The notes under the pieces: generated by a model | What the model was told of the DNA's origin: nothing | Database searches by the model: none | What the model saw: the letters and a program-made list of their open reading frames with translations, nothing else | Program-made: the position numbers and the translations under genes | From: Candidatus Woesearchaeota archaeon | Lineage (GTDB): Archaea > Nanobdellota > Nanobdellia > Pacearchaeales > GW2011-AR1 | Direction of reading: 5' to 3' | Assembly: GCA_964530955.1 (NCBI GenBank) | Contig: CAZHCL010000004.1 | Location: 1-55,264 of the forward strand | Length of the DNA: 55,264 nucleotides | Part shown: in pieces, positions 5,207 through 51,383 of the stretch | How positions within the stretch are numbered: the stretch's first letter is position 1 | Layout: each line of letters begins with the position of its first letter

Positions 5207-6868
5207 ATGTTTGAGAAGGGAAAGACACAAAAAAAGAATTTTAATTTATTAGTCTTTACTTTTATTTCCGCCATAATTATTCTTTCTTTGCAGTTTGCTT
5301 CTGCTGCACAATCTGCAGTAGACCTTGGAACTGCTGGTAACTTTGCCATATTAAGTACTTCGGGAATTTCAAATACTGGAACTAGTTCAATAGTTGGAAA
5401 TGTTGGAGCCAATTCTGCCAGCAGCACAATAACAGGTTTTTCTCTAATCAGCGACTCGTCCAATAGATTTTCTACATCCTCTCTAGTTGATGGAAATGTT
5501 TATGCTTCTGACTATTCCTCTCCAACTCCTTCAGTTACTTTCTCTGCGGTTAAAGACATGCAAACAGCTTACGATGATGCAGCTGGTAGAACATCACCCG
5601 ATTTTACTGACCTAAACTCTGGAAATATAGGCGGTATGAATCTACCTGCGGGTCTTTACAAGTGGAATACGGGAGTATCGATTACTTCCGATCTTGTTCT
5701 CTCTGGAAACTCCAGCGATGTATGGATACTTCAGGTGCATGGAAATCTCTTTATGTCATCAGGTACCAACATTATTTTATCAGGAGGAGCACAGGCAAAG
5801 AATGTTTTCTGGCAAGTTAAAGGGCTAACTCTGCTAGGGTCAAGTTCTACTTTCAATGGAAACATATTAGGAAATAACCAAATAGTCTTTGATACTGGTT
5901 CAACATTAAACGGAAGAGCTTTAGCTCTATCATCAGTTAGTCTAAAATCTGATACTCTTACCTCTCCTAACAAAAATGATTTCCAATCACCAATAACAAT
6001 TGCTACAAATGTTGGAAACAGTTGGACAAACTCCGATTATAATGTGACTCTAAACGCAACCTCATTCAATAATACCTATATTTACCAAATAATCTATTCA
6101 TTAAATAACATTTCTGGACAGATAAATGGAAGTTCTGGAAATATATTGATAAATGTGAGCGGAAACAATACACTTACTTTTTACGCTGTTGATAGCTTCA
6201 GTCATTCAGAGGTATTAAAGACAGTTTATCCTCTTCTTGATGAAATAGCACCTAATATAACTTCATTTAATCTTTCATCTTCAAGTGTAAATGTTGGAGG
6301 AGTTATCACCTCATCGTGCATTGCTACTGACAATGTTGATTCTAATGTCAGTATTAATGTAACTGGAATAGATATCTCTGTAGCTGGAAATTACACTGCA
6401 AACTGCACGGCAACAGACTTTGCTGGCAACACAGCAGTTGCTTATGCAAATTATACTGTAACAACCCCCACACCAACTTCAACATCTAATGGAAATAGCG
6501 GCGGTGGAGGCGGAGGAAGTCAGTGTTTAACAAATTGGACTTGCTCAGATTGGTCAGTATGTTCAAACAACATACAGACAAGAACTTGCAATAGAATAAG
6601 ATCCTACTGCTATGCTGGAGCTCAGCCTGCTCTGAATCAGACTTGCACTATCCCTGTAAATTCTCAGAATAATAATGAATCCAACTCTGGAGCAAGCACT
6701 TCTGCAACCTCAAGTGGATCCAATGGCGCAGGTGCGGGAATAACTGGAGCAGTAACTGGTGCTTTGAAAAATGCTGGAATAAATTCAACAGTCCTTGCAG
6801 TAATTGTATTGATTGGAGTGGGCATATATGCCTTTGTTGTTCTGGCAGTAAAACCAAGAGCTATTTAG
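5207..6868 (+). CDS. Secreted, membrane-anchored DUF3494 (ice-binding-like) protein with Ig-like stalk, Cys-rich TSP1-like module and C-terminal TM (paralog 1)
   Basis: Signal peptide; VDLGTAGNFAILS, DMQTAYDDAAGR, GGAQAKNVFWQV, LNGRALA (DUF3494); CxxxWTCSDWSVC module; hydrophobic C-terminus. Confidence 0.9.
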   Translation: MFEKGKTQKKNFNLLVFTFISAIIILSLQFASAAQSAVDLGTAGNFAILSTSGISNTGTSSIVGNVGANSASSTITGFSLISDSSNRFSTSSLVDGNVYASDYSSPTPSVTFSAVKDMQTAYDDAAGRTSPDFTDLNSGNIGGMNLPAGLYKWNTGVSITSDLVLSGNSSDVWILQVHGNLFMSSGTNIILSGGAQAKNVFWQVKGLTLLGSSSTFNGNILGNNQIVFDTGSTLNGRALALSSVSLKSDTLTSPNKNDFQSPITIATNVGNSWTNSDYNVTLNATSFNNTYIYQIIYSLNNISGQINGSSGNILINVSGNNTLTFYAVDSFSHSEVLKTVYPLLDEIAPNITSFNLSSSSVNVGGVITSSCIATDNVDSNVSINVTGIDISVAGNYTANCTATDFAGNTAVAYANYTVTTPTPTSTSNGNSGGGGGGSQCLTNWTCSDWSVCSNNIQTRTCNRIRSYCYAGAQPALNQTCTIPVNSQNNNESNSGASTSATSSGSNGAGAGITGAVTGALKNAGINSTVLAVIVLIGVGIYAFVVLAVKPRAI

Positions 6869-7938: not shown

Positions 7939-8835
7939 GTGAAAAAGGTCAGTGATACAAAGGAACTTAAAATTATTGCAGATGATATCAGAGAAGAAAT
8001 AATAAAAATGCTTGTTGAAGCAGGTTCTGGTCACTCTGCAGGTCCTTTAGGAATGTCTGACGTTTTCGCTGCTCTTTATTTTAATATTTTGAATCACGAA
8101 CCAAAAAATCCTAGTTGGGAAAATAGAGATAGACTTGTTTTATCAAATGGGCACATTTGTCCTGTGTTATATGCCTCTCTTGCAAAGTCAGGTTATTTTC
8201 CAGTGAGTGAACTAAAGACATTAAGAAAAATCGGATCAAGATTACAGGGACATCCTCATTTGCATGCTCTTCCAGGAATAGAAACAAGCACGGGACCTTT
8301 AGGTCAGGGAACTTCCGTTGCAGCAGGTATGGCCTACGGAGCTAAGATGGATAATAAAAAATATAAAATATTTCTTTCAATGGGTGATGGCGAGTTAGAT
8401 GAAGGTCAGTGTTGGGAATCATTTATGTTTGCAGGCAAATATAAGCTGGATAATTTAATAGGATTTGTTGACAGAAATAATATTCAGATCGATGGTACAA
8501 CCGATGATGTCATGCCTCTAGAGCCTTTAGCTAAAAAATTCCAGGCATTTAACTGGAATGTCATTGAAATAGATGGAAATGACATGAAGCAGATAATTTC
8601 TGCCTTCAATCAGGCAAGAAATCATAGAGGAAAGCCCACGGTTGTTATTTGCAAAACAATTCCTGGAAAAGGAGTTAGTTTTATGGAAAAAAGATTTGAG
8701 TGGCACGGCAAAACACCAAATAAAGAAGAGGCAATTAAAGCTCTGCATCAAATATGTGAAGATGAGTGCAAAATTCGAGGGCTCAATTCAGAAAAATGCA
8801 AATTGTTACTTGAACAGTCTGGGAGGCTTGAATGA
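7939..8835 (+). CDS. tkt: Transketolase, N-terminal (TPP-binding) subunit
   Basis: AGSGHSAG, DRLVLSNGH, LQGHP, STGPLGQG, GDGELDEG...DRNN TPP motif. Confidence 0.93.
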   Translation: MKKVSDTKELKIIADDIREEIIKMLVEAGSGHSAGPLGMSDVFAALYFNILNHEPKNPSWENRDRLVLSNGHICPVLYASLAKSGYFPVSELKTLRKIGSRLQGHPHLHALPGIETSTGPLGQGTSVAAGMAYGAKMDNKKYKIFLSMGDGELDEGQCWESFMFAGKYKLDNLIGFVDRNNIQIDGTTDDVMPLEPLAKKFQAFNWNVIEIDGNDMKQIISAFNQARNHRGKPTVVICKTIPGKGVSFMEKRFEWHGKTPNKEEAIKALHQICEDECKIRGLNSEKCKLLLEQSGRLE

Positions 8836-9800
8836 AATTTAACTTAAAAAATCCAGAAATGATTGCATCTAGAGATGGATATGGAAAAGCATTGATTTCT
8901 TTAGGAAAGAAAAACAAAAATATCTTTGCTTTATGCTGTGATTTGACTGATTCAACAAGAGTTGAAGGATTCAAGCAAAAATATCCCAAACAATTTATAG
9001 AAGTAGGAGTTGCAGAACAGAATATGGCTGGATTAGCAGCAGGCCTTGCCTTGATTGGAAAGATTCCTTTTATCAGCTCATATTCCGTATTCAGCCCTGG
9101 GAGAAACTGGGACCAGTTAAGAGTAAGTGTATGTTATAATAATCTAAATGTAAAAATTCAGGGAGCTCATGCAGGAATCAGCGTAGGTCCAGATGGGGCG
9201 ACTCATCAGGCACTAGAAGATATAGCAATAATGCGTGTTCTTCCTAATATGAAAGTAATAGTTCCTGCTGACGCATTTCAGGCAGAGAAAGCAACCATCG
9301 CGTCAGCCTCAATTAAAGGACCTGTTTATATAAGATTAGGAAGAGACAAAATTCCAGTGATAACTGATTCTAAAACACCGTTCGTATTTGGAAAGGCAGA
9401 TATCTTGCGAAATGGCTCTGATGTATGCATCATTGCTTGTGGAAGAATGGTTTATGAGTCTTTGTTTGCTGCTGAGACTTTAGCAAAAGAAGGAATAAAT
9501 GCGATGGTAATAAATTGTCACACTATCAAACCATTAGATGCAAAAACAATAATTTCTGCTGCAAAGAAAACAAATGCGATTGTGACTGCTGAAGAGCATC
9601 AGATTCACGGAGGGCTTGGCAGCGCGATTGCCGAAACACTTGCAATGCATTATCCCACACCAATAGAGTTAGTAGCCATACAAGATACTTTTGGAGAATC
9701 AGGAAATCCTGAAGAATTGCTAAAGAAATATAATTGCACCCATGCAAATATCTCCCAGGCAGTAAAAAAGGTTCTAAAAAGGAAGAAGTCCTATGAGTGA
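8832..9800 (+). CDS. tkt: Transketolase, C-terminal subunit
   Basis: EVGVAEQNM, HAGISVGPDGATHQALED, YIRLGR, EEHQIHGGLG; ATGA overlap with the N-subunit gene. Confidence 0.93.
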   Translation: MKFNLKNPEMIASRDGYGKALISLGKKNKNIFALCCDLTDSTRVEGFKQKYPKQFIEVGVAEQNMAGLAAGLALIGKIPFISSYSVFSPGRNWDQLRVSVCYNNLNVKIQGAHAGISVGPDGATHQALEDIAIMRVLPNMKVIVPADAFQAEKATIASASIKGPVYIRLGRDKIPVITDSKTPFVFGKADILRNGSDVCIIACGRMVYESLFAAETLAKEGINAMVINCHTIKPLDAKTIISAAKKTNAIVTAEEHQIHGGLGSAIAETLAMHYPTPIELVAIQDTFGESGNPEELLKKYNCTHANISQAVKKVLKRKKSYE

Positions 9801-11418
9801 TTGGATAGCTGAACTAAAAGAAGGATTTGAAGGAGATGTTCTCAATGACTCAGATACAATTGAAAAGTACAGTCAGGATGCTTCAATATTCAAGGTGATG
9901 CCAAAGCTTGTTGTTTTTCCTAAGAATTACAAAGATGTTCAGCATCTTGTTAACTTTGTTAAAAAAAGAAAAGGCATTTCTCTTACTGCCAGAGCAGCAG
10001 GAACAGATATGACTGGAGGTCCATTAACAGAATCCATAGTTGTTTCATTTACAAAATATCTCAATCATATCAAAAAAGTTGACAAAAAAAATGCAGTAGT
10101 TGAGCCTGGAGTGTATTACAGAGATCTTGAAAAAAAGATGGATAAAATAGGAGTTATGTATCCAAGTTACCCTGCCAGCAAATCTTTATGTGCTATGGGT
10201 GGAATTATAGCAAATAATTCTGGGGGAGAAAAATCGCTGGTTTACGGGCAAACAGTTAATCATGTAAATAGATTAAAAGTAGTTTTAGCAGATGGAAATA
10301 TATACGAATTAAAAAAACTCAATAAGGAAGAACTAAAGTTGAAGATGCAGCAGAAAGACTTCGAGGGTAAGATTTACAGAGAAGTTTATGAGCTCTGTGA
10401 AAAGAATTATGATTTGATTAAATCTGCAGAACCTAAAGTCTCAAAGAATTCTTCAGGATATCTTTTGTGGAAAGTCTGGGACAGAAAAACTTTTGATTTG
10501 TCCAAGCTTTTCGTAGGCTCTCAGGGAACTTTAGGCCTTTGGTTAGATGCCGACATTGATTTGGTAAAGAAAAACAAGCATTCCAGACTTGTTGTAGTCT
10601 CCCTAGGCAATTTAAATCAGATAGGCGAATTAATAAAAACAGTAAAGAGCTACAACCCAGAGTCTCTAGAATGTTTTGATAAATATACGCTGCGGCTCGG
10701 TCTGGAATTCCTACCAGAAATAGCCAAGAAAGTGCATAAGGGCCTTCTTCCCATGTTATGGGACTTCAGAAGGGAAGCAGAAGAAGCGTTATTTCATGGA
10801 ATTCCCATATTCATCGTATTAGTAGAACTCACAGGAGATAGGGAAGAAGAAATTCAGAAGAGAGCAGATAAATTAGGAAAAGAATTATCAGATAAAAAAA
10901 TACACAATCTGGTTATGCAAAGCGAGGAAGAAGGAAGCAAATTCTGGATTATGAGAAGAGAGTCATTTAATCTTCTTAGACAGAAAGTAAAAGACAAAAT
11001 GGCAACTCCTTTCGTGGATGATTTTAGCGTCAAACCGGAATATTTGTCTGAATTCCTACCAAAATTATACAAATTGCTTGAAGATAATGGCATAAAGCCC
11101 ACTTTAGCAGGACATGTAGGAGATGGAAACTTTCATGTCATTCCATTGATGGATTTAAATAATAAAGCTGAAAGAGAAAAGATACCTATTGTTCTCAATA
11201 AATTCATTGACCTTGTCTGCAAGTATGGTGGCACAATAACTGCAGAACATAATGATGGTCTGATAAGAACCCCCTATCTGGAGAAAGAGTATGGAAAAAA
11301 GATGATAAAGATTTTTGAAAGAGTTAAGGACATTTTTGACAGGGAGGGGATATTTAATCCTGGAAAGAAAGTCCATGGAAGCATGGAATTTGCAATGTCT
11401 CATATTAAATCAAAGTGA
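9793..11418 (+). CDS. FAD-linked oxidoreductase (GlcD / D-2-hydroxyacid oxidase-like)
   Basis: RAAGTDMTGG, GGIIANNSGG, VGSQGTLG, GHVGDGNFH, AEHNDG, FNPGK; no Fe-S C-terminal domain. Confidence 0.88.
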   Translation: MSDWIAELKEGFEGDVLNDSDTIEKYSQDASIFKVMPKLVVFPKNYKDVQHLVNFVKKRKGISLTARAAGTDMTGGPLTESIVVSFTKYLNHIKKVDKKNAVVEPGVYYRDLEKKMDKIGVMYPSYPASKSLCAMGGIIANNSGGEKSLVYGQTVNHVNRLKVVLADGNIYELKKLNKEELKLKMQQKDFEGKIYREVYELCEKNYDLIKSAEPKVSKNSSGYLLWKVWDRKTFDLSKLFVGSQGTLGLWLDADIDLVKKNKHSRLVVVSLGNLNQIGELIKTVKSYNPESLECFDKYTLRLGLEFLPEIAKKVHKGLLPMLWDFRREAEEALFHGIPIFIVLVELTGDREEEIQKRADKLGKELSDKKIHNLVMQSEEEGSKFWIMRRESFNLLRQKVKDKMATPFVDDFSVKPEYLSEFLPKLYKLLEDNGIKPTLAGHVGDGNFHVIPLMDLNNKAEREKIPIVLNKFIDLVCKYGGTITAEHNDGLIRTPYLEKEYGKKMIKIFERVKDIFDREGIFNPGKKVHGSMEFAMSHIKSK

Positions 11419-12671
11419 TAATAAAAAACTTCAACATTCTGGCTAGTGATAAAACGCGCGGAGACGCATTAAAAATAATAAATTCAGGAATTGAATCAGT
11501 GTTGGTAAAACCATTAATACAAAAACAAATAACTCTTTCTGAAAACACTCTAAAAATAAAAAATCATAGCTGGAATCTTTCTAAATATAATAGAATTTTT
11601 GTCGTTGGAGCTGGTAAAGCTGCAGCAGATATGGCTGAAACAATAGAAGATATATTGGGCAGTAAAATTTCAGCAGGCATAGTTATAGACACTAGAACAA
11701 GAAAATTAAAGAGAATTAAAGTCATAAAAGGAACACACCCCCTTCCTACCAAAATAAATATAGAAGCAACAGAAAAAATAATAAAAATATTGAACAATAG
11801 CGGAGAGAATGATTTAATTATTGCATTAATAAGTGGAGGCGGCTCTTCCCTGATGGTTTCTTCGAGAATTAAATTGAAAAAATTAATTGAACTAAATAAA
11901 ATGATGTTGAAAAGGGGTGCGACAATTAATGAAATAAATACAGTAAGAAAGCACATATCAAATATTACTGGAGGACAGCTTGCTAAACTAGCAGCTCCAG
12001 CTGAATTAATAAGTCTGATTGTGAGCGACGTTATAACAAATAACCTTGATGTGATAGCATCAGGACCTACAGTAAAAGACACCACAACAATTAAAGACGC
12101 AGTTAAAATTCAGAAGAAATATAATCTTCCGAGTTTGCCCTTTATTGAAACTCCCAAGGAAAAACCAAAAAAAGTTGCTAATATTCTGCTAGTTACTAAT
12201 GTCTATGCTGCCGAGGCGATGAAAAAAGAGGCAATAAAAATAGGATACAAGTCAAAGATTTTAACTACCCAACTAAAAGGAGAAGCCAGATTAATTGGAG
12301 TTAAATTGGCTAAATTGGTAAAATCCAACTGTGCTTTAATAGCGACTGGAGAAACTACTGTTAATGTGAAAGGCAATGGAATGGGAGGAAGAAATCAGGA
12401 ACTGGTTCTTGCAGCAAGCAAGTTCATCAATAAAGGAGTAATTATCAGCTGTTCTTCAGACGGAGTTGACTATATCAGCCAGGCTGGGGGAGCCATAGCT
12501 GATAAAAATACAAAAGAGCAGGCAAAAAAATATAAATTAAATGCAGATGAATTTCTAAAAAATAACAACTCTTATAATTTTCTGAAAAGAGTTAATGGAA
12601 TAATTATCACTGGCAAAACCGGAACTAATATAGGCGATCTCTTTCTTGTTCTGGGAGAAAAAACTAATTAG
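11415..12671 (+). CDS. Glycerate 2-kinase (MOFRL/TtuD family)
   Basis: VVGAGKAAADM, HPLP, LISGGGSSL, IASGPT, GETTV, GGRNQE, GTNIGD. Confidence 0.9.
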   Translation: MIIKNFNILASDKTRGDALKIINSGIESVLVKPLIQKQITLSENTLKIKNHSWNLSKYNRIFVVGAGKAAADMAETIEDILGSKISAGIVIDTRTRKLKRIKVIKGTHPLPTKINIEATEKIIKILNNSGENDLIIALISGGGSSLMVSSRIKLKKLIELNKMMLKRGATINEINTVRKHISNITGGQLAKLAAPAELISLIVSDVITNNLDVIASGPTVKDTTTIKDAVKIQKKYNLPSLPFIETPKEKPKKVANILLVTNVYAAEAMKKEAIKIGYKSKILTTQLKGEARLIGVKLAKLVKSNCALIATGETTVNVKGNGMGGRNQELVLAASKFINKGVIISCSSDGVDYISQAGGAIADKNTKEQAKKYKLNADEFLKNNNSYNFLKRVNGIIITGKTGTNIGDLFLVLGEKTN

Positions 12672-16366: not shown

Positions 16367-18019
16367 TTAATTAACAGCCTTAACAGAATAAGTCATAGGT
16401 TTAATCAACAAAGCAATAAATCCATATATTCCTACACCAATTAACACGAGTATTGCCCAACCAGTAGCTCCTAGACCCTTACCAGTGCCTACAGAACCAG
16501 TTACTGCTCCGGTTATGCCCGAGTCTCCATTCCCTGTGGCTGTTGCAGAATTATTTGTCAAAGTATTAGTTGTGTTATTAACCGCGAAAATAACTGGAGT
16601 AGTGCAAGTCTGATTCAAAGCAGGCTGAGCTCCAGCATAACAGTAGGATCTTATCCTATTGCAAGTTCTTGTCTGTATGTTGTTTGAACATACTGACCAA
16701 TCTGAGCAAGTCCAATTTGTTAAACACTGACTTCCTCCGCCTCCACCACCACCGCCATTTGATGTTGAAGTTGGTGTGGGAGTTGTTACAGTATAATTTA
16801 GGGAAGCAAGAGCAATATTACCTACAAAATCTGTTGCAGTACAATTTGCAGCGAATGTTCCTGCTACAGAGGTATCTATTGTAGTTACATTGATACTAAC
16901 ATTAGAATCTACATTGTCTGTTGCAATGCATGAAGCAGTAATTGTTTCTCCAACATTTACGCTTGAGGATGAAAGATTGAATGAAGTTATATTAGGAGCT
17001 ACTTCATCAAGCAATGGATAGATAGTGTTTAATCCTTCAGAATGACTGAAGCTATCAAAAGCATAGAAAGTAAGAGTGTTATTTGCACTAATGTTTATGG
17101 GGATGATTCCATAATTACCATCTATCTGCCCAGAAACTCCATTCAAAGAATATGAAATATGATCTACATAGGTATTATTGAATGATGTTGCGTTTAGAGT
17201 AACATTATAATCGGAATTTGTCCAACTGTTTCCAGGATTTGTAGCGATGGTTATTGGTGCTTGGAAGTCATTTTTATTTGGAGAGACAATATTATTAGAA
17301 TCTAAAGTGACTGCTGTTTGCGCTAAAGCTCTTCCATTTAGGGTTGCACCATTCTTAAATACGATTTCACTCTTGCTTAAAAAATTTCCGCTAGATTGTG
17401 AAGAATATCCAAGTAGGGTAGTGCCAGTAGTTTGCCAGAAAACATTCTTTGCTTGTGCTCCGCCAGATAATATGATCTTAGATTTTACCCATAAAGTTCC
17501 ACTTGTTTGGAAAATCCAAACATCAGTTGAATTTCCAGCTAAAGTTATATCTCCAAATAATGTAAGATCTGAATTCCATCTATACAGACCTGGAGCAAAA
17601 GTGGTAGATCCTAAATTTCCGCCATTATAATCAATAGAATCTGGTAAATTTCTTGCAGCAGCATCATTGTAGGCTGTTTGCATATCTCCTATAGCAGAGG
17701 TCATAACAGATGGTGTTGGAGAAGAATAGTCAGCAGCATAAACGTTACCAACAACCAAAGATGAAGTAGAAAAGGTATTAGAAGAATCAGCTACCAAACC
17801 AAATCCTGTGACCGCAGTACTACTAATAGGACTAACTCCAATGTTTCCAACAATTGAAGTTGTTCCAGTAGTTGAAATTCCTGATTGACTTAATATAGCA
17901 AAATTACCTGCAGTCCCAAGATTGACCGCTGATTGAGCAGCAGAAGCAAACTGTAGAGATAATATAATCCCTGCAAAGAGCAAAGCGAAGACTAGCATTT
18001 TATAGTTTGATTTTTCCAT
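16367..18019 (-). CDS. DUF3494 (ice-binding-like) surface protein (paralog 2)
   Basis: Same architecture as 5207-6868, with long near-identical blocks. Confidence 0.9.
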   Translation of the reverse strand: MEKSNYKMLVFALLFAGIILSLQFASAAQSAVNLGTAGNFAILSQSGISTTGTTSIVGNIGVSPISSTAVTGFGLVADSSNTFSTSSLVVGNVYAADYSSPTPSVMTSAIGDMQTAYNDAAARNLPDSIDYNGGNLGSTTFAPGLYRWNSDLTLFGDITLAGNSTDVWIFQTSGTLWVKSKIILSGGAQAKNVFWQTTGTTLLGYSSQSSGNFLSKSEIVFKNGATLNGRALAQTAVTLDSNNIVSPNKNDFQAPITIATNPGNSWTNSDYNVTLNATSFNNTYVDHISYSLNGVSGQIDGNYGIIPINISANNTLTFYAFDSFSHSEGLNTIYPLLDEVAPNITSFNLSSSSVNVGETITASCIATDNVDSNVSINVTTIDTSVAGTFAANCTATDFVGNIALASLNYTVTTPTPTSTSNGGGGGGGGSQCLTNWTCSDWSVCSNNIQTRTCNRIRSYCYAGAQPALNQTCTTPVIFAVNNTTNTLTNNSATATGNGDSGITGAVTGSVGTGKGLGATGWAILVLIGVGIYGFIALLIKPMTYSVKAVN

Positions 18020-22775: not shown

Positions 22776-23249
22776 ATGGGATTTAGAGATAACGACAGGA
22801 AAGGATCATTTGGTTCTGGACGAGGAAACGGCGGAGGATTTGGCGGAGGCGGTTTCGGAGGCAGAAGCAGAGGAGGATTCTCAGGTAGAGGCGGAGGCCG
22901 TGGAGGATTTAGAGATAGAGACTCTGGTCCAAGAGAGATGTTTGACGCAGTATGCAGCAAGTGTCACAAGCCATGTCAGGTTCCATTCAAACCAACAGGA
23001 AATAAGCCAGTTCTATGTAGTGATTGCTTCAGGCAAAGTGAAGGCTCAAATCAGAGTTTCAATAGAAGTTCAGGTTCTGATAATGCTGGAATATCAGCAG
23101 ATCAATTCAAACAGCTTAATTCAAAATTAGATAAAATCCTAGAAATTCTTGACCAGCTTGAAATTGAGGCAGTTGAAGGAGAAGACGAAGATATTCAAGA
23201 TAACGAAAAAGATGAAGAATCAGATGAGAACGAAGATGGAAAAGAATAA
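22776..23249 (+). CDS. RGG-rich, CxxC-x17-CxxC Zn-ribbon protein with acidic tail
   Basis: REMFDAVCSKCHKPCQVPFKPTGNKPVLCSDCF. Confidence 0.88.
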   Translation: MGFRDNDRKGSFGSGRGNGGGFGGGGFGGRSRGGFSGRGGGRGGFRDRDSGPREMFDAVCSKCHKPCQVPFKPTGNKPVLCSDCFRQSEGSNQSFNRSSGSDNAGISADQFKQLNSKLDKILEILDQLEIEAVEGEDEDIQDNEKDEESDENEDGKE

Positions 23250-23318
23250 TTACAAAAAAGCAAATATTTATATTGCCTCATTACAAACTCATTTTACAAC
23301 CAGGAGGATATTATAACA

Positions 23319-23510
23319 ATGAAAGGCAAAATAAAGTTCTTCAATGAAATTAAAGGATTTGGATTTATAACTGCTGAAGACGGAAAAGAATACTTTGTTC
23401 ACAGCACAGGATTAGCAGCTGGAACTAAGGTCAAAGAAAATGATTCAGTAACTTTTGAAGTTGAGCAGGGAGATAAGGGTCCTAAAGCAGTGAAAGTAAC
23501 AAAAGAATAA
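23319..23510 (+). CDS. cspA: Cold-shock domain protein
   Basis: KGKIKFFNEIKGFGFI (RNP1), YFVHST (RNP2), GDKGPKA; CAGGAGG RBS-like sequence upstream. Confidence 0.93.
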   Translation: MKGKIKFFNEIKGFGFITAEDGKEYFVHSTGLAAGTKVKENDSVTFEVEQGDKGPKAVKVTKE

Positions 23511-24747: not shown

Positions 24748-24799
24748 TAAATGAGTCATCCTTCCGAAGGTTTTTAAATCAAATTAGTGCGTTTTTTAT

Positions 24800-25645
24800 A
24801 TGGAAGAGCTAAATTTCACATATAAGCTGTTTGGAGGAGAAATTCAGGTAGTAATTTACGATGCAGATAAAAATCTAGTCGAAGATGTAATGAATGAGTT
24901 TTATCAGGAAGCATTAAGATTGCAGAAAATATTTAACTTTTTTGATGATAGAAGCGAACTTTCAATTCTTAACCAGAAAAGAGAGCTTGTTGTTTCTCAA
25001 GATTTGCTAAAAGTAATAAAAAAAGGCATTAAATTCTCTGAATTGACCAATGGAAAATATGACATAAGTCTAGGTAGAAAGTTTCTTGCCAGAAAGAAAG
25101 AAGGAAAAGAAATATCTGCTTCATGTTCCTACAAGGACATCGAAATTGAAGGAGATAAAATTACGCTTAAAAATAAAGATGTGATGATTGATTTAGGAAG
25201 CATTGCAAAGGGATATATCACAGACAGACTTGCTGACTTTCTCAAGAATAAGGGCGTTAAAGAGTTCCTAATTGATTCAAGAGGAGACATAATCGTTTCA
25301 GGCAGCTATGAGCATTTAATTGGAATTCAGAACCCTAGAGACAAAAAAGAAGTTATCTGCAACATTAAAGTCAAAAATAAAGGAATAGCAACATCGGGCG
25401 ATTACAAGCAGTATTATAAAAGTTATGATAATTCACATATAATAAACGCGAACAATTCTGCTTCCATAACTGTATTATCTGAAAAACTTGAAGACGCAGA
25501 CGTTTATGCTACAGCATTATTTGTTGCAAATAGCAGAGAAAAAGATAAAATAATCAATTTGGATAAAAATGTTAAGGTTTTTGTCATTGATAAGAATTTA
25601 AAAGCAGAGAAGTATAATAATTTCGAAGAGGTAATGGCAAAATGA
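24800..25645 (+). CDS. apbE: FAD:protein FMN transferase (ApbE) lacking a signal peptide
   Basis: SELSILN, IDLGSIAKGY, ATSGDY, HIIN, ADVYATAL. Confidence 0.9.
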   Translation: MEELNFTYKLFGGEIQVVIYDADKNLVEDVMNEFYQEALRLQKIFNFFDDRSELSILNQKRELVVSQDLLKVIKKGIKFSELTNGKYDISLGRKFLARKKEGKEISASCSYKDIEIEGDKITLKNKDVMIDLGSIAKGYITDRLADFLKNKGVKEFLIDSRGDIIVSGSYEHLIGIQNPRDKKEVICNIKVKNKGIATSGDYKQYYKSYDNSHIINANNSASITVLSEKLEDADVYATALFVANSREKDKIINLDKNVKVFVIDKNLKAEKYNNFEEVMAK

Positions 25646-26958
25646 ATTACAAAACAAAAAGAACTCTTGGATGGATAGTCCTACTTGCATTATCTCTCAT
25701 TCCAATCTATCTTTTATTTGCATTTGGGCCTGCGGGGAATGAACTTTCAGATTATTCTTCCGTAACTCATACGCTTGGAGAAGTCTTCGGTCTGGTAGGG
25801 ATGACTATGTTTGCGCTTACTTTTGTTCTTTCAACAAGAATAAAATGGATAGAAGATGTTTTCGGAGGTCTTGATAAAGTTTATCTTGCTCATGGTATCC
25901 TCGGAGGAACCGCTTTAATAGTAATACTCGCGCATCCCATATTCCTTGTATTAAAGTTTATACCTAGCGATTTTGTGACTGCCGCAATGTATTTGCTACC
26001 AAGTTCCTTCTGGTCAGTCAATTTTGGAATAATCGCACTTCTGGGAATGGTTATACTTATAGGAATAACTTTGTTTTCAAAGATGAAATATCATAGATGG
26101 AAGTTTACTCATGAATTTCTTGGATTAATATTCCTATTTGCTGTATTTCACATCTTTCTTGTAAGAGGGGTAGCTTCAAAAGATAACATATTCAATGGTT
26201 ATTACATATACTCAGCAATAGTATCTATAATAGGACTTTCCGCCTTCTCATATAGCCTATTCCTTAAGAACAGGATGATTAAGAACGCAGTATATAATAT
26301 TGAAAAAATATACAATGAAAAAGATGTATTTGAGATAATAATTACTCCAGAGCATAAACCTATAAGCTATCAATCAGGGCAGTTTGTATTTGTAAGATTC
26401 TATAACCAAAACCTATCAAAAGAGGCACATCCATTCTCCATAGCTTCAAAGTCAAACGACCCTAGAATGAAAATAATTGTCAAAAAACTCGGGGATTACA
26501 CAAGCAAAATGACCCATTTAAAGATTGGAGATAAAGTTTCAGTCGAAGGCCCCTATGGAAGATTCCATTTCAGAAACTACCATAATGAAAATCAGGTATG
26601 GATTGCCGCAGGAATAGGAATAACTCCCTTCATGGGGATGGCTGAAGACATTGAAAATGAAAAAATAAAATCCAATGTTAGATTGTATTACACAGCAAAA
26701 AATGATTCTGACTTTGTAGGATATAATTTGTTTAGTAGAATTGCAAGAAGTTTAAGTAACTTCAAGTTTATTCCCTGGAAATCTGAAGAAAAAGGAAGAA
26801 TAACTGCTGAAGAAATAATAAAAAATAAGGAAGACCTAAAAAACACCCAGTTTTTACTATGTGGTTCAGGTCAATTTAAAGAAGGAATAATTGATGGACT
26901 TGTCAACGCAGGAGTTAAGAAGAGTATGATTCATGAGGAGGCTTTTGATTTCAGATGA
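25642..26958 (+). CDS. Ferric-reductase-like transmembrane domain fused to FAD- and NAD(P)-binding (FNR) domains
   Basis: About 6 TM helices with His pairs (LAHG...LAHP; FTHE...VFH), HPFSIAS, EGPYG, AAGIGITPF, LLCG, EAFDF. Confidence 0.9.
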   Translation: MNYKTKRTLGWIVLLALSLIPIYLLFAFGPAGNELSDYSSVTHTLGEVFGLVGMTMFALTFVLSTRIKWIEDVFGGLDKVYLAHGILGGTALIVILAHPIFLVLKFIPSDFVTAAMYLLPSSFWSVNFGIIALLGMVILIGITLFSKMKYHRWKFTHEFLGLIFLFAVFHIFLVRGVASKDNIFNGYYIYSAIVSIIGLSAFSYSLFLKNRMIKNAVYNIEKIYNEKDVFEIIITPEHKPISYQSGQFVFVRFYNQNLSKEAHPFSIASKSNDPRMKIIVKKLGDYTSKMTHLKIGDKVSVEGPYGRFHFRNYHNENQVWIAAGIGITPFMGMAEDIENEKIKSNVRLYYTAKNDSDFVGYNLFSRIARSLSNFKFIPWKSEEKGRITAEEIIKNKEDLKNTQFLLCGSGQFKEGIIDGLVNAGVKKSMIHEEAFDFR

Positions 26959-27251
26959 GATTTAAAAAACTAAGAATTTTTGTCGGAATTGCAATTCTTA
27001 TTTTCGTTTTGGTAATTGGAAATATAATTGCCTTTGGATTAACTCATAATACTAACAGCAATAATATCGCTGCAATTGACACTAGGAAATCGGCAGTTAA
27101 TTCAACTTTACAGGTTATAGATTCAAGTTCTCCAAACACTGCAAGCTCAAGCACTAGCTCAAATACTCAGCAGCAACAGGTCCAGTCAACCCCAGCACCA
27201 GTACCTGCACCGATAGTTTATCATCCAACTATGCGAACAAGAGCTTCTTAA
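26955..27251 (+). CDS. Small membrane-anchored or secreted protein with S/T/Q/P-rich linker and C-terminal TRAS
   Basis: N-terminal TM, low-complexity linker, ends ...HPTMRTRAS*; ATGA overlap with the reductase gene. Confidence 0.75.
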   Translation: MRFKKLRIFVGIAILIFVLVIGNIIAFGLTHNTNSNNIAAIDTRKSAVNSTLQVIDSSSPNTASSSTSSNTQQQQVQSTPAPVPAPIVYHPTMRTRAS

Positions 27252-27252
27252 C

Positions 27253-27924
27253 TTACTTTCTTGTTTGACTGCTATCAAGAGAAGCAGCTATAAAAAATAA
27301 GATAGCCAAAAGCAGAGCAAAATGGCAAAGAACAGAGGGAAGATTAACATTAAAAATAGGAAAAATTTGTAGGACTATAAATGTTGGTAAAGTCATGCAA
27401 AGAATTCCCAAAGCAACAAAGAAAGAAACCTTTTTTCTTGTTTTATCTTTCACTTTCAAATATTCTCTAACCAAGTATATGAAAGCAATTGTAATAAAAA
27501 TAATGTAATAAAGCATATATGGGAGGACAAGAAGAGCATTATTAGAAAGAATAGTCTTTACAGACACAAAGAGCCTCATGCAAGTGCCAGACAAAACAAA
27601 ATTGGGAGTTAAGAGAGCCAAAAATGAATAAACTATGGGTATTGCATAAAGCAAAGTAAAGTTTTTCCTTTTATTTAGATAAAAAAGAGTTGCGTGTAAT
27701 CCTAAAACTGGCAAGAAACTGTAGGCTATGAAACCTACTCTCACCCATATAAGATTTGCAGAAAAGCAAAGCATGAATTCAGTGAACTGATAAATTCCAA
27801 GAAGCAGAAGAATTATGCTGAAAAATGGTGTTAATTTCGACTTTCTAAAAGAAGTTATTAGAATTAAAGCTAAAACCCATTCAGTTATTGCAGTTGCAAG
27901 AGATATGGTCGGAGTAAAGCACAT
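27253..27924 (-). CDS. 7-TM membrane protein (MCF-start family)
   Basis: Seven hydrophobic segments; MCFTPTIS start. Confidence 0.7.
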   Translation of the reverse strand: MCFTPTISLATAITEWVLALILITSFRKSKLTPFFSIILLLLGIYQFTEFMLCFSANLIWVRVGFIAYSFLPVLGLHATLFYLNKRKNFTLLYAIPIVYSFLALLTPNFVLSGTCMRLFVSVKTILSNNALLVLPYMLYYIIFITIAFIYLVREYLKVKDKTRKKVSFFVALGILCMTLPTFIVLQIFPIFNVNLPSVLCHFALLLAILFFIAASLDSSQTRK

Positions 27925-50501: not shown

Positions 50502-51383
50502 ATGAGTAAAAAAGTGATTATAGCTGCATTTCCCAATGTGGCTGAAATAGGAAGAAAAGTTGCAAAATCTCTTAAAGCTGAATTTACAGAAATATCTGTT
50601 AAGAAATTCCCCGATTCAGAATTTCATCTAACTCTAAAGAAAAATCCAGGCAACAAGACAGTTGTAATAATTAACTCATTTTTCCATGACCCAAACAGCA
50701 AACTTGTTGAAACTCTTCTGGCAGGAGGAGTGGCAAAAGATTACAAAGCAAATAAAATAATTTTATTCGCTACATATTTACCTTATATGAGGCAAGACAC
50801 TCATTTTGTTAATTATGATAGCTTCTCAGCAAAGCACATGCTTGAAGTTTTTGCTGACTTTGACAAAATAATAGCCATAGACCCTCATTTACACAGAATA
50901 AAAAATATGCATACTCTTTCAGCCAAAGCAGAAAGCATAACCGTAGACGAGATCGTTGCAGATTATATTAAAAGGAATTTCAAAGGAGAGTATGAAATAA
51001 TAGGACCTGACAATGAGAGCGCACAATGGAGCGCAAAAATAGCAAAAATGCTAAAGAAGAAAGTAGTGATATTAGATAAAACAAGAATTGGAGATGCAAG
51101 TATAAAGCAAAAAAAAGTTAATTTAGATAAAAACTCAAATTATATTTTAATTGATGATATCATAAGCACAGGAAAGACTCTTCTCGGTGCGTTTGAAATG
51201 GCTGAGAAGCAGGGAGCTAAGAAGTTGGTGAGCATTGGAATTCACGGGCTGTTTGTAAATGAAGCAGATAAACTGATTGCAAAGCATGCTTCAATAATAA
51301 CAACAAACACAGTTCCAACAAAATATTCTAAGATAGACATTTCCTCTGCTATTGTTGATAGATTAAGAAAAGAAATTAAATAA
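50502..51383 (+). CDS. prs: Ribose-phosphate pyrophosphokinase (archaeal type)
   Basis: FPDSE, YLPYMRQD, IDPHLH, IGPDNES, LIDDIISTG.T. Confidence 0.88.
   Translation: MSKKVIIAAFPNVAEIGRKVAKSLKAEFTEISVKKFPDSEFHLTLKKNPGNKTVVIINSFFHDPNSKLVETLLAGGVAKDYKANKIILFATYLPYMRQDTHFVNYDSFSAKHMLEVFADFDKIIAIDPHLHRIKNMHTLSAKAESITVDEIVADYIKRNFKGEYEIIGPDNESAQWSAKIAKMLKKKVVILDKTRIGDASIKQKKVNLDKNSNYILIDDIISTGKTLLGAFEMAEKQGAKKLVSIGIHGLFVNEADKLIAKHASIITTNTVPTKYSKIDISSAIVDRLRKEIK

What the first reader, a model, noticed from the sequence alone, without database searches (positions are those of the whole stretch)
24800..27251. ApbE + ferric-reductase/FNR fusion + small 'TRAS'-tailed membrane protein: candidate archaeal flavinylation-based transmembrane electron transfer
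Seen: three genes joined by two ATGA overlaps. The ApbE has no signal peptide or lipobox. The reductase has two His pairs plus FAD and NAD(P) domains. The third protein is a TM anchor + flexible S/T/Q/P linker ending ...MRTRAS-COOH, with no folded FMN-binding domain. Known: ApbE attaches FMN to the last S/T of [S/T]GA[S/T] motifs, and ApbE/ferric-reductase clusters mediate extracytosolic redox in bacteria. Inference: TRAS is a variant motif whose terminal Ser is flavinylated, giving a minimal FMN 'swinging arm' that takes electrons from the NAD(P)H-heme b reductase to external acceptors. This could be a redox sink for a fermentative archaeon, or a route to its host.
Basis: partly seen in the sequence, partly recalled or inferred. 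Interest (0 to 1): 0.72.

Follow-up and report, generated by a model that had tools for sequence, protein, structure and literature searches.

The report
Tail-tagged flavin carrier operon in DPANN
A three-gene operon, conserved across tiny DPANN archaea, pairs a flavin-attaching enzyme and an NADPH-oxidase-like membrane reductase with a small membrane-anchored protein that is disordered and always ends in ...T-R-A-S, most likely a natural "flavin tag" that carries electrons out of the cell.

Summary
Three ATGA-overlapping genes encode a leaderless ApbE, a NOX/SpNOX-type reductase (two haem-binding His pairs, FAD and NAD(P)H domains), and a 98-aa protein. That protein is one TM helix plus a disordered tail ending RTRAS-COOH.

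In 45 DPANN loci, apbE and an x-[T/S]-x-A-S-COOH protein always occur together; the two apparent exceptions are contig ends. Another 35 loci have neither. Of 155 family members clustered at ≤50% identity, 150 end in A-S. Position −3 is T or S in 149. Position −2 is mostly R, but G or S in 20, which gives the canonical TGAS/SGAS/TSAS motif.

DPANN relatives without apbE keep only a 31-aa TM stub. CPR bacteria replace the tail with a membrane-anchored cytochrome b5, so the partner looks like an outward-facing electron carrier.

Published work shows ApbE can flavinylate a 7-residue tag at a protein terminus. Flavinylation itself is untested here.

One problem remains open: every ApbE lacks a signal peptide, while the tail is predicted to lie outside the cell.

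Verdict: a new, undescribed variant of the "MsrQ-like" flavinylation system, with a substrate that has no folded domain.

The parts
24771..24779 (+). TATA-box-like element TTTTTAAAT, 28 nt upstream of the apbE ATG. It implies a leaderless mRNA and fixes the ApbE start codon.
   Evidence: Sequence. An element sits at the same position (-27 to -30) in about 24 of 40 homologous loci.
24800..25645 (+). apbE: FAD:protein FMN transferase, 281 aa, with no signal peptide or lipobox (predicted cytosolic).
   Evidence: PF02424, E=1e-48. Matches solved ApbE/FmnB structures 1vrm and 7esa. Motifs DLGSIAKGYI, RGD, ATSGDY.Q, sHi and AD..aT are conserved in 44 homologues. N-termini are aligned.
25642..26958 (+). 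NOX/FRE-type transmembrane reductase, 438 aa. It has six TM helices, haem His pairs H84/H98 and H157/H170, the FAD motif HPFSIAS and the NAD(P)H motif GIGITPF.
   Evidence: Pfam PF01794, PF08022 and PF00175. Best solved relative is SpNOX 8qq7/8qt6/8qta, E=1e-32. Invariant residues are listed.
26955..27251 (+). Small subunit, 98 aa: basic N-terminus MRFKKLR, one TM helix, an S/T/Q/P-rich disordered linker and a C-terminal RTRAS-COOH.
   Evidence: No Pfam family. AF2 gives helix 2-36 with the rest below pLDDT 65.
26955..27041 (+). Signal-anchor / TM helix of the small subunit (residues 1-29), predicted N-in. It is conserved even in relatives that lack the tail (31-aa stubs).
   Evidence: Mean flank charge across 42 family members: 3.2 K/R on the N side versus about 1.2 K/R and 1.3 D/E on the C side. 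Stubs in L046, L048, L049 and L053.
27234..27248 (+). C-terminal pentapeptide R94-T95-R96-A97-S98. S98 is the proposed FMN-phosphoester acceptor, a natural C-terminal 'flavin tag'.
   Evidence: Logos from 42 locus-derived members and 150 library members. A(-1) and S(0) are invariant. T/S at -3 in 149 of 150. At -2: R 124, S 12, G 8.

Best explanation
This operon encodes a minimal transmembrane electron-export module that is conserved across DPANN archaea.

The proposed mechanism:
1. The NOX/SpNOX-type reductase takes electrons from cytosolic NAD(P)H. It passes them through FAD and two b haems to the outer face of the membrane. (Inferred from homology.)
2. The small subunit docks on the reductase through its conserved N-terminal TM helix. 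It presents a long, disordered, partly glycosylatable tail outside the cell. (Inferred.)
3. ApbE transfers the FMN moiety of FAD onto the hydroxyl of the very last residue, Ser98. That residue sits in the degenerate flavinylation motif [T/S]-[R/G/S]-A-S-COOH. (Inferred; supported by comparative genomics.)
4. The tethered FMN accepts electrons from the outer haem and hands them to an external acceptor, which has not been identified. It plays the role that a folded FMN-binding domain plays in bacterial 'MsrQ-like' systems, and that a cytochrome b5 domain plays in the CPR version of this module.
5. Every ApbE in the clade is leaderless, so the tag is most likely modified in the cytoplasm before the unfolded tail is translocated. 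(Speculative step.)
For: - Tight translational coupling: both junctions are ATGA overlaps.
- The trio is conserved, with differing flanks, in Woese-, Pace-, Nano- and Micrarchaeia.
- Co-occurrence is strict. apbE plus an x-T-x-A-S-COOH protein occur together in 43 of 45 loci; the two exceptions are cut by contig ends. Neither is present in 35 loci.
- DPANN loci without apbE keep only a 31-32 aa TM stub with no tail.
- The C-terminus is almost invariant while the linker is hypervariable in length and sequence. 150 of 155 members from ≤50%-identity clusters end in A-S. Twenty of them have G or S at -2, which reproduces the canonical [S/T]-G/S-A-[S/T].
- ApbE catalytic and FAD-binding motifs are conserved in all 44 homologues.
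- The reductase has no ApbE-specific A-[S/T] site.
- The CPR orthologous partner is a TM-anchored Cyt-b5 (PF00173), with PT-rich or Ig-like stalks and no apbE nearby.
- Tail topology: the positive-inside rule and N-x-S/T sequon enrichment, 87 observed versus 54.8±6.1 in shuffles, place the tail outside.
- Literature:
  - ApbE flavinylates a 7-residue tag, best at protein termini. Changing the motif Asp to Ala has a minor effect, Gly to Ala leaves about 50% activity, and Ser is accepted (PMC12052999).
  - apbE plus PF01794/NAD-binding clusters are a known 'MsrQ-like' system (PMC8238504).
  - Unstructured C-terminal extensions carrying the motif are predicted in FMN_red proteins (PMC11334425).
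Against: - No experiment shows FMN on Ser98.
- The window's motif departs from the canonical one: Arg replaces Gly at -2 and there is no Asp at -6.
- ApbE lacks any export signal in all 44 homologues, while the tail is predicted to be extracytosolic. Cytoplasmic modification followed by export of a flavinylated, Arg-rich C-terminus has no precedent.
- The co-occurrence statistic rests on few independent evolutionary events. The apbE-less DPANN loci are probably a single clade.
- The profile used included the A-S ending, which slightly favours retrieving such sequences.
- No external acceptor, iron transporter or flavin exporter is linked to the cluster.
Confidence: 0.6

Rival explanations
1. 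Cytosolic 'flavin-fixing'. The tail stays in the cytoplasm, where the leaderless ApbE is. Its terminal FMN is inserted into the flavin site of the reductase's dehydrogenase domain. This gives a covalently tethered flavin in an organism that must scavenge flavins.
For: - ApbE is leaderless in all homologues.
- The closest solved relative, SpNOX, binds flavin weakly when the dehydrogenase domain is isolated, and the full enzyme works with FMN (Km 0.92 uM; PMC11031084).
- Precedent exists for predicted C-terminal extensions that deliver FMN to a non-covalent site (PMC11334425).
- The C-terminal segment is Arg-rich, which is typical of cytoplasmic segments.
Against: - The N-terminal flank carries about 3-4 K/R, against a roughly neutral C-flank, which predicts N-in/C-out.
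- N-glycosylation sequons are enriched in the tails.
- The homologous partner in CPR bacteria carries PT-linkers, Cys-containing Ig-like modules and Cyt-b5, which are typical of surface proteins.
- The residues that bind the FAD adenine in SpNOX (Y122, R126) align with the invariant Y150 and K154 here. The HPFS/GDYT FAD motifs are kept whether or not apbE is present. There is no sign that the FAD site has been remodelled.
Confidence: 0.12
2. The tail is not flavinylated. ApbE serves another target elsewhere in the genome, or acts as an FAD pyrophosphatase or flavin-handling protein for the reductase. The conserved ...RTRAS-COOH is a docking, sorting or processing signal for the small subunit.
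For: - The window's motif lacks the canonical Gly(-2) and Asp(-6).
- Some ApbE/Ftp proteins hydrolyse FAD (general knowledge of T. pallidum Ftp).
- Only 55 kb of the genome could be inspected for other substrates.
Against: - The tail disappears together with apbE while the TM stub is kept.
- Orthologous tails with TGAS, SGAS or TSAS match the canonical motif.
- The invariant residues are exactly those that are strictest in the known motif: Ala(-1) and the acceptor Ser/Thr.
- The window contains no FMN_bind, DUF2271 or DUF3570 candidate. Its only other [ST]GA[ST] is a lone SGAS in an ice-binding-like protein.
Confidence: 0.15
3. Secreted flavo-peptide shuttle. The N-terminal hydrophobic segment is a cleavable signal peptide (…A-F-G|L…). 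The flavinylated tail of about 68 aa would then be released as a diffusible electron shuttle rather than a tethered arm.
For: Small residues lie at -3 and -1 relative to a possible cleavage site after the TM segment. Free flavins act as shuttles in other extracellular electron transfer systems (general knowledge).
Against: - The hydrophobic segment is long (about 22 residues). It is conserved in sequence, including a terminal G-L shared with the CPR b5 partners.
- It is retained on its own as a 31-aa ORF where the tail and apbE are absent. This argues for a structural membrane subunit.
- Covalent attachment is generally interpreted as preventing flavin loss (PMC11334425).
Confidence: 0.07

Closest known systems
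'MsrQ-like' flavinylation-associated transmembrane electron transfer system (Méheust et al. 2021, PMC8238504)
   Same: The gene cluster contains apbE and a PF01794 six-TM di-haem protein fused to FAD/NAD-binding domains. The proposed flow is NAD(P)H to haems to an ApbE-flavinylated extracytosolic acceptor.
   Different: - The known clusters, mainly in Actinobacteria, carry a folded FMN-binding domain (PF04205) protein and a secreted or lipidated ApbE.
- Here the substrate is a domain-less tail with the motif at the extreme C-terminus.
- ApbE is leaderless.
- The hosts are DPANN archaea. That study's filter for signal-peptide-bearing components would not have retained this leaderless ApbE or its domain-less substrate.
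Synthetic 'Flavin-tag' (Tong et al. 2021, as reviewed in PMC12052999)
   Same: A short unstructured peptide ending in the acceptor Ser/Thr is enough for ApbE, and it works best at a protein terminus. This is exactly the architecture seen here.
   Different: The tag is engineered and uses D-x-x-[S/T]-G-A-[S/T]. The natural tail is mostly R-T-R-A-S with a free carboxylate on the acceptor residue, and no Asp.
SpNOX / prokaryotic NADPH oxidases (PDB 8qq7, 8qt6; PMC11031084, PMC5676040)
   Same: Same domain architecture, His-pair spacing, HPF[ST] and GIGITPF motifs, and D-loop Tyr/basic residues.
   Different: SpNOX works alone and reduces O2. The DPANN and CPR enzymes are encoded with a dedicated single-TM partner that carries, or is proposed to carry, a third redox cofactor (FMN or haem b5).
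Listeria flavin-based extracellular electron transfer (FmnB/PplA)
   Same: An ApbE-type enzyme flavinylates a surface-tethered carrier that passes electrons to external acceptors.
   Different: Listeria uses a lipoprotein ApbE, folded FMN-binding domains, a quinone pool with EetA/B, and a dedicated flavin exporter (PMC9973259). None of these is seen here.
ApbE-associated FMN_red proteins with an unstructured C-terminal extension (PMC11334425)
   Same: The flavinylation motif lies on a disordered C-terminal segment.
   Different: In those proteins the segment folds back onto a flavodoxin-like domain of the same protein. Here there is no domain at all, and the likely partner is a separate membrane cytochrome.

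Membership tests
ApbE / FAD:protein FMN transferase (PF02424) | Sequence match to the family profile above the curated cut-off | tested here: met
   166 bits against a 25.6-bit cut-off, covering profile positions 2-264 of 266. PDB relatives 1vrm and 7esa, E about 1e-17.
ApbE / FAD:protein FMN transferase (PF02424) | Conserved active-site and FAD/Mg motifs (…DLGxIAKG…, …TSGxY…, catalytic His, C-terminal AD..(A/S)T) | tested here: met
   DLGSIAKGYI, ATSGDY, sHi and AD..aT are ≥80-95% conserved in 44 clade members. They align to the corresponding FmnB/TM1553 segments.
ApbE / FAD:protein FMN transferase (PF02424) | N-terminal signal peptide or lipobox (typical of the family, but not obligatory) | tested here: not met
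   The domain starts at residue 12. A stop codon lies 15 nt upstream. A TATA-like box lies at -28. All 44 homologues start at the same Met.
ApbE / FAD:protein FMN transferase (PF02424) | FMN transfer activity onto a Ser/Thr of a target | not testable with these tools
   Needs co-expression and mass spectrometry.
MsrQ-like flavinylation system (PMC8238504) | apbE clustered with a PF01794 transmembrane cytochrome, often carrying NAD_binding_1 | tested here: met
   The arrangement is conserved in about 45 loci.
MsrQ-like flavinylation system (PMC8238504) | A cluster-encoded substrate with an FMN-binding domain (PF04205), DUF2271 or DUF3570 | tested here: not met
   The 98-aa protein matches no Pfam family. 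AF2 shows one helix plus disorder.
MsrQ-like flavinylation system (PMC8238504) | Extracytosolic (secreted or lipidated) ApbE | tested here: not met
   ApbE is leaderless.
NOX/FRE ferric-reductase-domain flavocytochromes | Six TM helices with two bis-His haem sites on TM3 and TM5, spaced 13 and 12 residues | tested here: met
   H84/H98 and H157/H170, invariant in alignment A2. PF01794.
NOX/FRE ferric-reductase-domain flavocytochromes | C-terminal FNR-like dehydrogenase domain with FAD (HPF[ST]) and NAD(P)H (GxGxxP) motifs | tested here: met
   HPFSIAS and GIGITPF are invariant. PF08022 and PF00175. Aligned with SpNOX over residues 53-432.
NOX/FRE ferric-reductase-domain flavocytochromes | Reduction of O2 or Fe(III) at the outer haem | not testable with these tools
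   Needs an enzyme assay.
ApbE flavinylation motif D-x-x-[S/T]-G-A-[S/T] | Acceptor Ser/Thr preceded by Ala | tested here: met
   A(-1) and S(0) in 42 of 42 and 150 of 150.
ApbE flavinylation motif D-x-x-[S/T]-G-A-[S/T] | Ser/Thr at -3 | tested here: met
   T 139, S 10, A 1 of 150.
ApbE flavinylation motif D-x-x-[S/T]-G-A-[S/T] | Gly at -2 | tested here: not met
   The window has Arg. Across the family: R 124, S 12, G 8. In the literature, Gly to Ala keeps about 50% flavinylation (PMC12052999).
ApbE flavinylation motif D-x-x-[S/T]-G-A-[S/T] | Asp at -6 | tested here: not met
   Position -6 is T/R/K/V/M/P. In the literature, Asp to Ala has only a minor effect (PMC12052999).
ApbE flavinylation motif D-x-x-[S/T]-G-A-[S/T] | Covalent FMN phosphoester present on the acceptor residue | not testable with these tools
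   Needs mass spectrometry or in-gel fluorescence.

The most novel reading that the evidence does not exclude
DPANN archaea possess a widespread, previously unrecognised electron-export device. A leaderless ApbE flavinylates the free C-terminal serine of an intrinsically disordered 50-110-residue tail in the cytoplasm. The flavin-tipped tail is then threaded through the membrane. Anchored next to a NOX-type cytochrome, it works as a tethered 'fishing-line' shuttle long enough to cross the S-layer and reach minerals, O2 or the host cell surface. This would give these 'purely fermentative' episymbionts an NAD(P)H sink. CPR bacteria would have solved the same problem with a stalked cytochrome b5.
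Probability: 0.3. Interest if true: 0.88.

Novelty: new variant of a known kind. Interest (0 to 1): 0.72.

Why it matters
If confirmed, this would matter in several ways.
- It would be the first natural ApbE substrate with no folded domain, a native counterpart of the engineered Flavin-tag, and it would extend the recognised motif to T-R-A-S-COOH.
- It would be the first flavin-based transmembrane electron-transfer module assigned to DPANN archaea. Their energy metabolism is regarded as minimal and host-dependent. The module is present in at least about 150 sequence clusters at ≤50% identity, across several DPANN classes.
- The parallel CPR module (NOX-type reductase plus stalked cytochrome b5) suggests that both ultra-small episymbiont radiations export reducing equivalents. 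This bears on how they balance redox and interact with hosts.
- The leaderless ApbE raises a cell-biological question that can be tested: is a cofactor attached before a Sec/YidC-type export step?
- The 5-residue tag and its cognate enzyme could also be useful for protein labelling.

Tried and rejected
- **Reductase as the substrate:** rejected. The only A-[S/T] conserved in apbE-linked reductases is A268-S269 of the FAD motif HPFSIAS, which is equally conserved where apbE is absent. The loop-E 'G-V-A-S' is not conserved.
- **Group-specific reductase residues:** I compared apbE+tail, stub and CPR-b5 loci to locate a docking site for the tail. The differences track phylogeny and do not cluster on either face of the membrane, so this was uninformative.
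- **ApbE/tail covariation:** ApbE D159→N occurs only in the three loci whose tails have G or S at -2. These form one clade, so this is a single evolutionary event and only a hint.
- **Other substrates in the window:** only a lone SGAS was found, in an ice-binding-like protein.
- **Tat export of a pre-modified protein:** considered and rejected. There is no twin-arginine motif; the N-terminus is MRFKKLR, and distant homologues have a single K or R.
- **Cleavable signal peptide:** considered unlikely because the TM-only stubs are conserved.
- **Word-indexed search with a tail profile:** returned only 13 proteins. The exhaustive HMM search was needed.
- **Transcript evidence:** none could be obtained. 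Only rhizosphere metagenome DNA runs hold the sequence.
- **Literature:** full-text searches found no paper linking ApbE to DPANN lineages, and no paper on NOX plus b5 in CPR.
- **AlphaFold-multimer:** a model of the reductase, small subunit and ApbE could not be run with the tools available.
Full report
**1. Observation**

The three ORFs are exactly as described:
- ApbE, 24800-25645
- a 438-aa reductase, 25642-26958
- a 98-aa protein, 26955-27251

All are on the + strand, and each pair shares an ATGA overlap.

Pfam assigns ORF1 to ApbE (PF02424, E=1e-48). ORF2 matches Ferric_reduct, FAD_binding_8/6 and NAD_binding_1. ORF3 matches nothing.

The ApbE domain begins at residue 12, and an in-frame stop lies 15 nt upstream of the ATG. 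A TATA-like TTTTTAAAT sits 28 nt upstream. A comparable element occupies the same position in about 24 of 40 homologous loci. This implies a leaderless mRNA and a firm start codon.

The reductase has the NOX-type His pairs H84/H98 and H157/H170, the FAD motif HPFSIAS and the NAD(P)H motif GIGITPF. All are invariant in 17 homologues. Its best solved relatives are the Streptococcus pneumoniae NADPH oxidase structures 8qq7, 8qt6 and 8qta (E about 1e-32).

AlphaFold2 models the small protein as one helix (residues 2-36) followed by a disordered chain.

**2. Organism and spread**

Reductase homologues at 55-83% identity are annotated as Woesearchaeota, Pacearchaeota, Nanoarchaeia, Micrarchaeia or simply DPANN. 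The window's nearest relative is a Woesearchaeota MAG. The sequence occurs in rhizosphere metagenomes.

A scan of one genome per GTDB species returned 80 loci. About 50 are DPANN. About 30 are CPR bacteria (Saccharibacteria, Paceibacteria, WWE3, Dojka-, Collier- and Shapirobacteria), plus a few other bacteria, at 29-37% identity.

**3. The key test: conservation of the tail and linkage to apbE**

I called ORFs in all loci and identified ApbE and reductase with phmmer.

In DPANN loci with apbE immediately upstream, the ORF overlapping the reductase stop is an 82-140 aa protein. It has a basic N-terminus, one TM segment, a hypervariable low-complexity linker and a C-terminus of …[R/V]-[T/S]-x-A-S-COOH.

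In seven loci a different protein follows the reductase. It has three TM segments, a coiled coil and an acidic D/E tail.
- In five of these, the next ORF is again TM-anchored and ends (V/P)-(T/S)-R-A-S.
- In the other two, the contig ends before that position.

The totals:
- 43 of 45 apbE loci show the tail protein.
- The two apparent exceptions, and the two 'tail without apbE' cases, are all contig truncations.
- 35 loci have neither gene.

Four DPANN loci without apbE retain only a 31-32 aa ORF, MRLKKLR plus a TM segment, with no tail.

The logo of 42 unique tails gives A(-1) 42/42, S(0) 42/42, T(-3) 39/42 and R(-2) 35/42.

An exhaustive profile search of 1.84 billion cluster representatives found 198 proteins. 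Of the 155 family members examined (the 150 listed hits plus members found earlier), 150 end in A-S:

| Position | Residues (of 150) |
|---|---|
| -3 | T 139, S 10, A 1 |
| -2 | R 124, S 12, G 8, A 2, M 2, H 1, K 1 |

The five outliers look truncated. About 13% of members therefore carry [S/T]-[G/S]-A-S, the canonical ApbE motif, at the orthologous position. This argues that T-R-A-S is a derived flavinylation motif.

Roughly 0.5% of background ORFs in the same loci end in AS.

Two caveats apply. The apbE-less DPANN loci probably represent one or two evolutionary events. The profile also contained the A-S ending.

**4. Is ApbE competent, and is the reductase the target?**

The motifs DLGSIAKGYI, RGD, ATSGDY.Q, sHi and AD..aT are conserved across 44 clade members. 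They align with the catalytic regions of solved ApbE/FmnB proteins.

The reductase has no ApbE-specific candidate site. The only conserved A-[S/T] is A268-S269 in the FAD motif, and it is equally conserved in loci that lack apbE. The loop-E 'GVAS' is not conserved.

The rest of the window contains no FMN-binding candidate. Its only other [ST]GA[ST] is one SGAS in an ice-binding-like protein.

**5. What the partner does: evidence from CPR**

In CPR loci the gene at the same position encodes a protein with a similar N-terminal anchor, including the terminal G-L. This is followed by PT-rich or Ig-like stalks and a cytochrome b5 domain (PF00173, E from 3e-18 to 9e-6). No apbE lies within 4 kb.

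The conserved architecture is therefore a NOX-type reductase plus a single-TM subunit carrying a redox head on a stalk. The head is haem b5 in CPR bacteria. In DPANN it is the ApbE-dependent tail.

**6. Topology problem**

All 44 ApbEs lack any N-terminal extension, so the enzyme is cytosolic. Cytosolic ApbEs are known, for example in Klebsiella (PMC12052999).

The small subunit has on average 3.2 K/R in its short N-flank and a roughly neutral C-flank, which predicts N-in/C-out. N-x-S/T sequons are enriched in the tails, 87 observed against 54.8±6.1 in composition-preserving shuffles, with 0 of 1000 shuffles reaching 87. The enrichment is driven by a subset of lineages and is not seen in the window's own protein.

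So enzyme and acceptor appear to lie on opposite sides of the membrane. I consider the likeliest resolution to be that the short, unfolded protein is modified at its free C-terminus before the tail is translocated. This is speculative.

The alternative is a cytosolic tail that fixes FMN into the dehydrogenase domain. It gains some plausibility from SpNOX, which works with FMN (Km 0.92 µM; PMC11031084). However, the SpNOX residues that bind the FAD adenine (Y122, R126) align with the invariant Y150 and K154 here. The FAD motifs are unchanged whether or not apbE is present.

**7. Comparison with what is known**

The cluster corresponds to the 'MsrQ-like' flavinylation-associated system of Méheust et al. 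(PMC8238504). It fails two of that system's usual features: a folded FMN-binding, DUF2271 or DUF3570 substrate, and a secreted ApbE.

The substrate resembles the engineered 7-residue Flavin-tag, which works best at protein termini. For that motif, Asp→Ala has a minor effect, Gly→Ala keeps about 50% activity and Ser is accepted (PMC12052999). It also resembles the disordered C-terminal motif-bearing extensions predicted in FMN_red proteins (PMC11334425).

Full-text searches found no paper linking ApbE with DPANN lineages. None describes the CPR NOX-b5 pairing either.

**8. Verdict**

The central inference, that T-x-A-S-COOH is an ApbE motif on a domain-less carrier, passes its own refutation test by a wide margin. 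It remains unproven biochemically.

Extracellular function is supported by analogy and by topology predictions. It conflicts with the location of ApbE, and that conflict is the most interesting open point.

I classify this as a new variant of a known kind. I give about 0.6 confidence to the full mechanism, and higher (about 0.7-0.75) to the narrower claim that the tail is ApbE's substrate.

Noticed in passing
L057-L085 (e.g. L084:5290-5754, L083:3596-4000, L074:1670-2530, L056:5423-5974): In CPR bacteria the NOX-type reductase is followed by a TM-anchored cytochrome b5 (PF00173). It often has PT-rich linkers, Ig-like Cys-containing modules or an acidic D/E C-terminus, and no apbE is nearby. 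This looks like an undescribed surface electron-transfer module in CPR.
   Followed up: partly
L023:2786-3313, L043:5332-5913, L051:5293-5838, L052:5287-5829, L055:5266-5835; also L021 and L026 (cut by contig ends): A DPANN subclade inserts an extra gene between the reductase and the TRAS-tailed protein. It has the same N-terminal anchor, two more TM helices, a coiled coil and a strongly acidic C-terminus (…EEEDEND, …EEYDDDD). Function unknown. Acidic tails also end some of the CPR b5 partners.
   Followed up: partly
L046, L048, L049, L053 (ORF overlapping the reductase stop): DPANN loci without apbE keep only a 31-32 aa ORF (MRLKKLR plus a TM helix) in place of the tailed protein. This suggests the helix is itself a structural subunit of the reductase.
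   Followed up: partly
ApbE residue D159 (window 25274-25276); loci L012, L027, L031: ApbE Asp159, in 'LIDSRGD', is Asn only in the three loci whose tails have G or S instead of R at position -2. This could be enzyme-substrate charge covariation, but the three loci form one clade.
   Followed up: partly
L060:5447-5926 and L061 (equivalent position): In two bacterial loci (record titles say only 'bacterium') a peptide methionine sulfoxide reductase MsrA (PF01625, E=2e-58) lies about 105 nt downstream of the NOX-type reductase. This echoes the MsrQ connection of the ferric-reductase-domain family.
   Followed up: partly
window 5207-6868 (+) and 16367-18019 (-): Two paralogous proteins of about 550 aa, each with an Ice_binding-like domain (PF11999, E about 1e-66), on opposite strands about 10 kb apart. 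They are probably surface or adhesion proteins.
   Followed up: no
window 7939-12671 (+): A run of overlapping genes: split transketolase (N-terminal part at 7939-8835, C-terminal part at 8832-9800), an FAD-linked oxidase resembling D-lactate or glycolate dehydrogenase (9793-11418), and a DUF4147/MOFRL glycerate-kinase-like protein (11415-12671). A second, full-length transketolase lies at 51376-53259 (-).
   Followed up: no
window 22776-23510 (+): An RGG-repeat protein with a treble-clef zinc finger (PF23477) is followed by a 63-aa cold-shock-like protein, just upstream of the operon region.
   Followed up: no
window 1-55264: ARAGORN found no tRNA gene anywhere in the 55 kb window. A D12-class adenine DNA methyltransferase lies at 1680-2531. 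G+C content is about 34% throughout.
   Followed up: no
window 27253-27924 (-): A convergent 223-aa multi-pass membrane protein (weak HisKA_7TM match) ends 1 nt after the small protein's stop codon. It is not conserved next to the operon in other loci.
   Followed up: no
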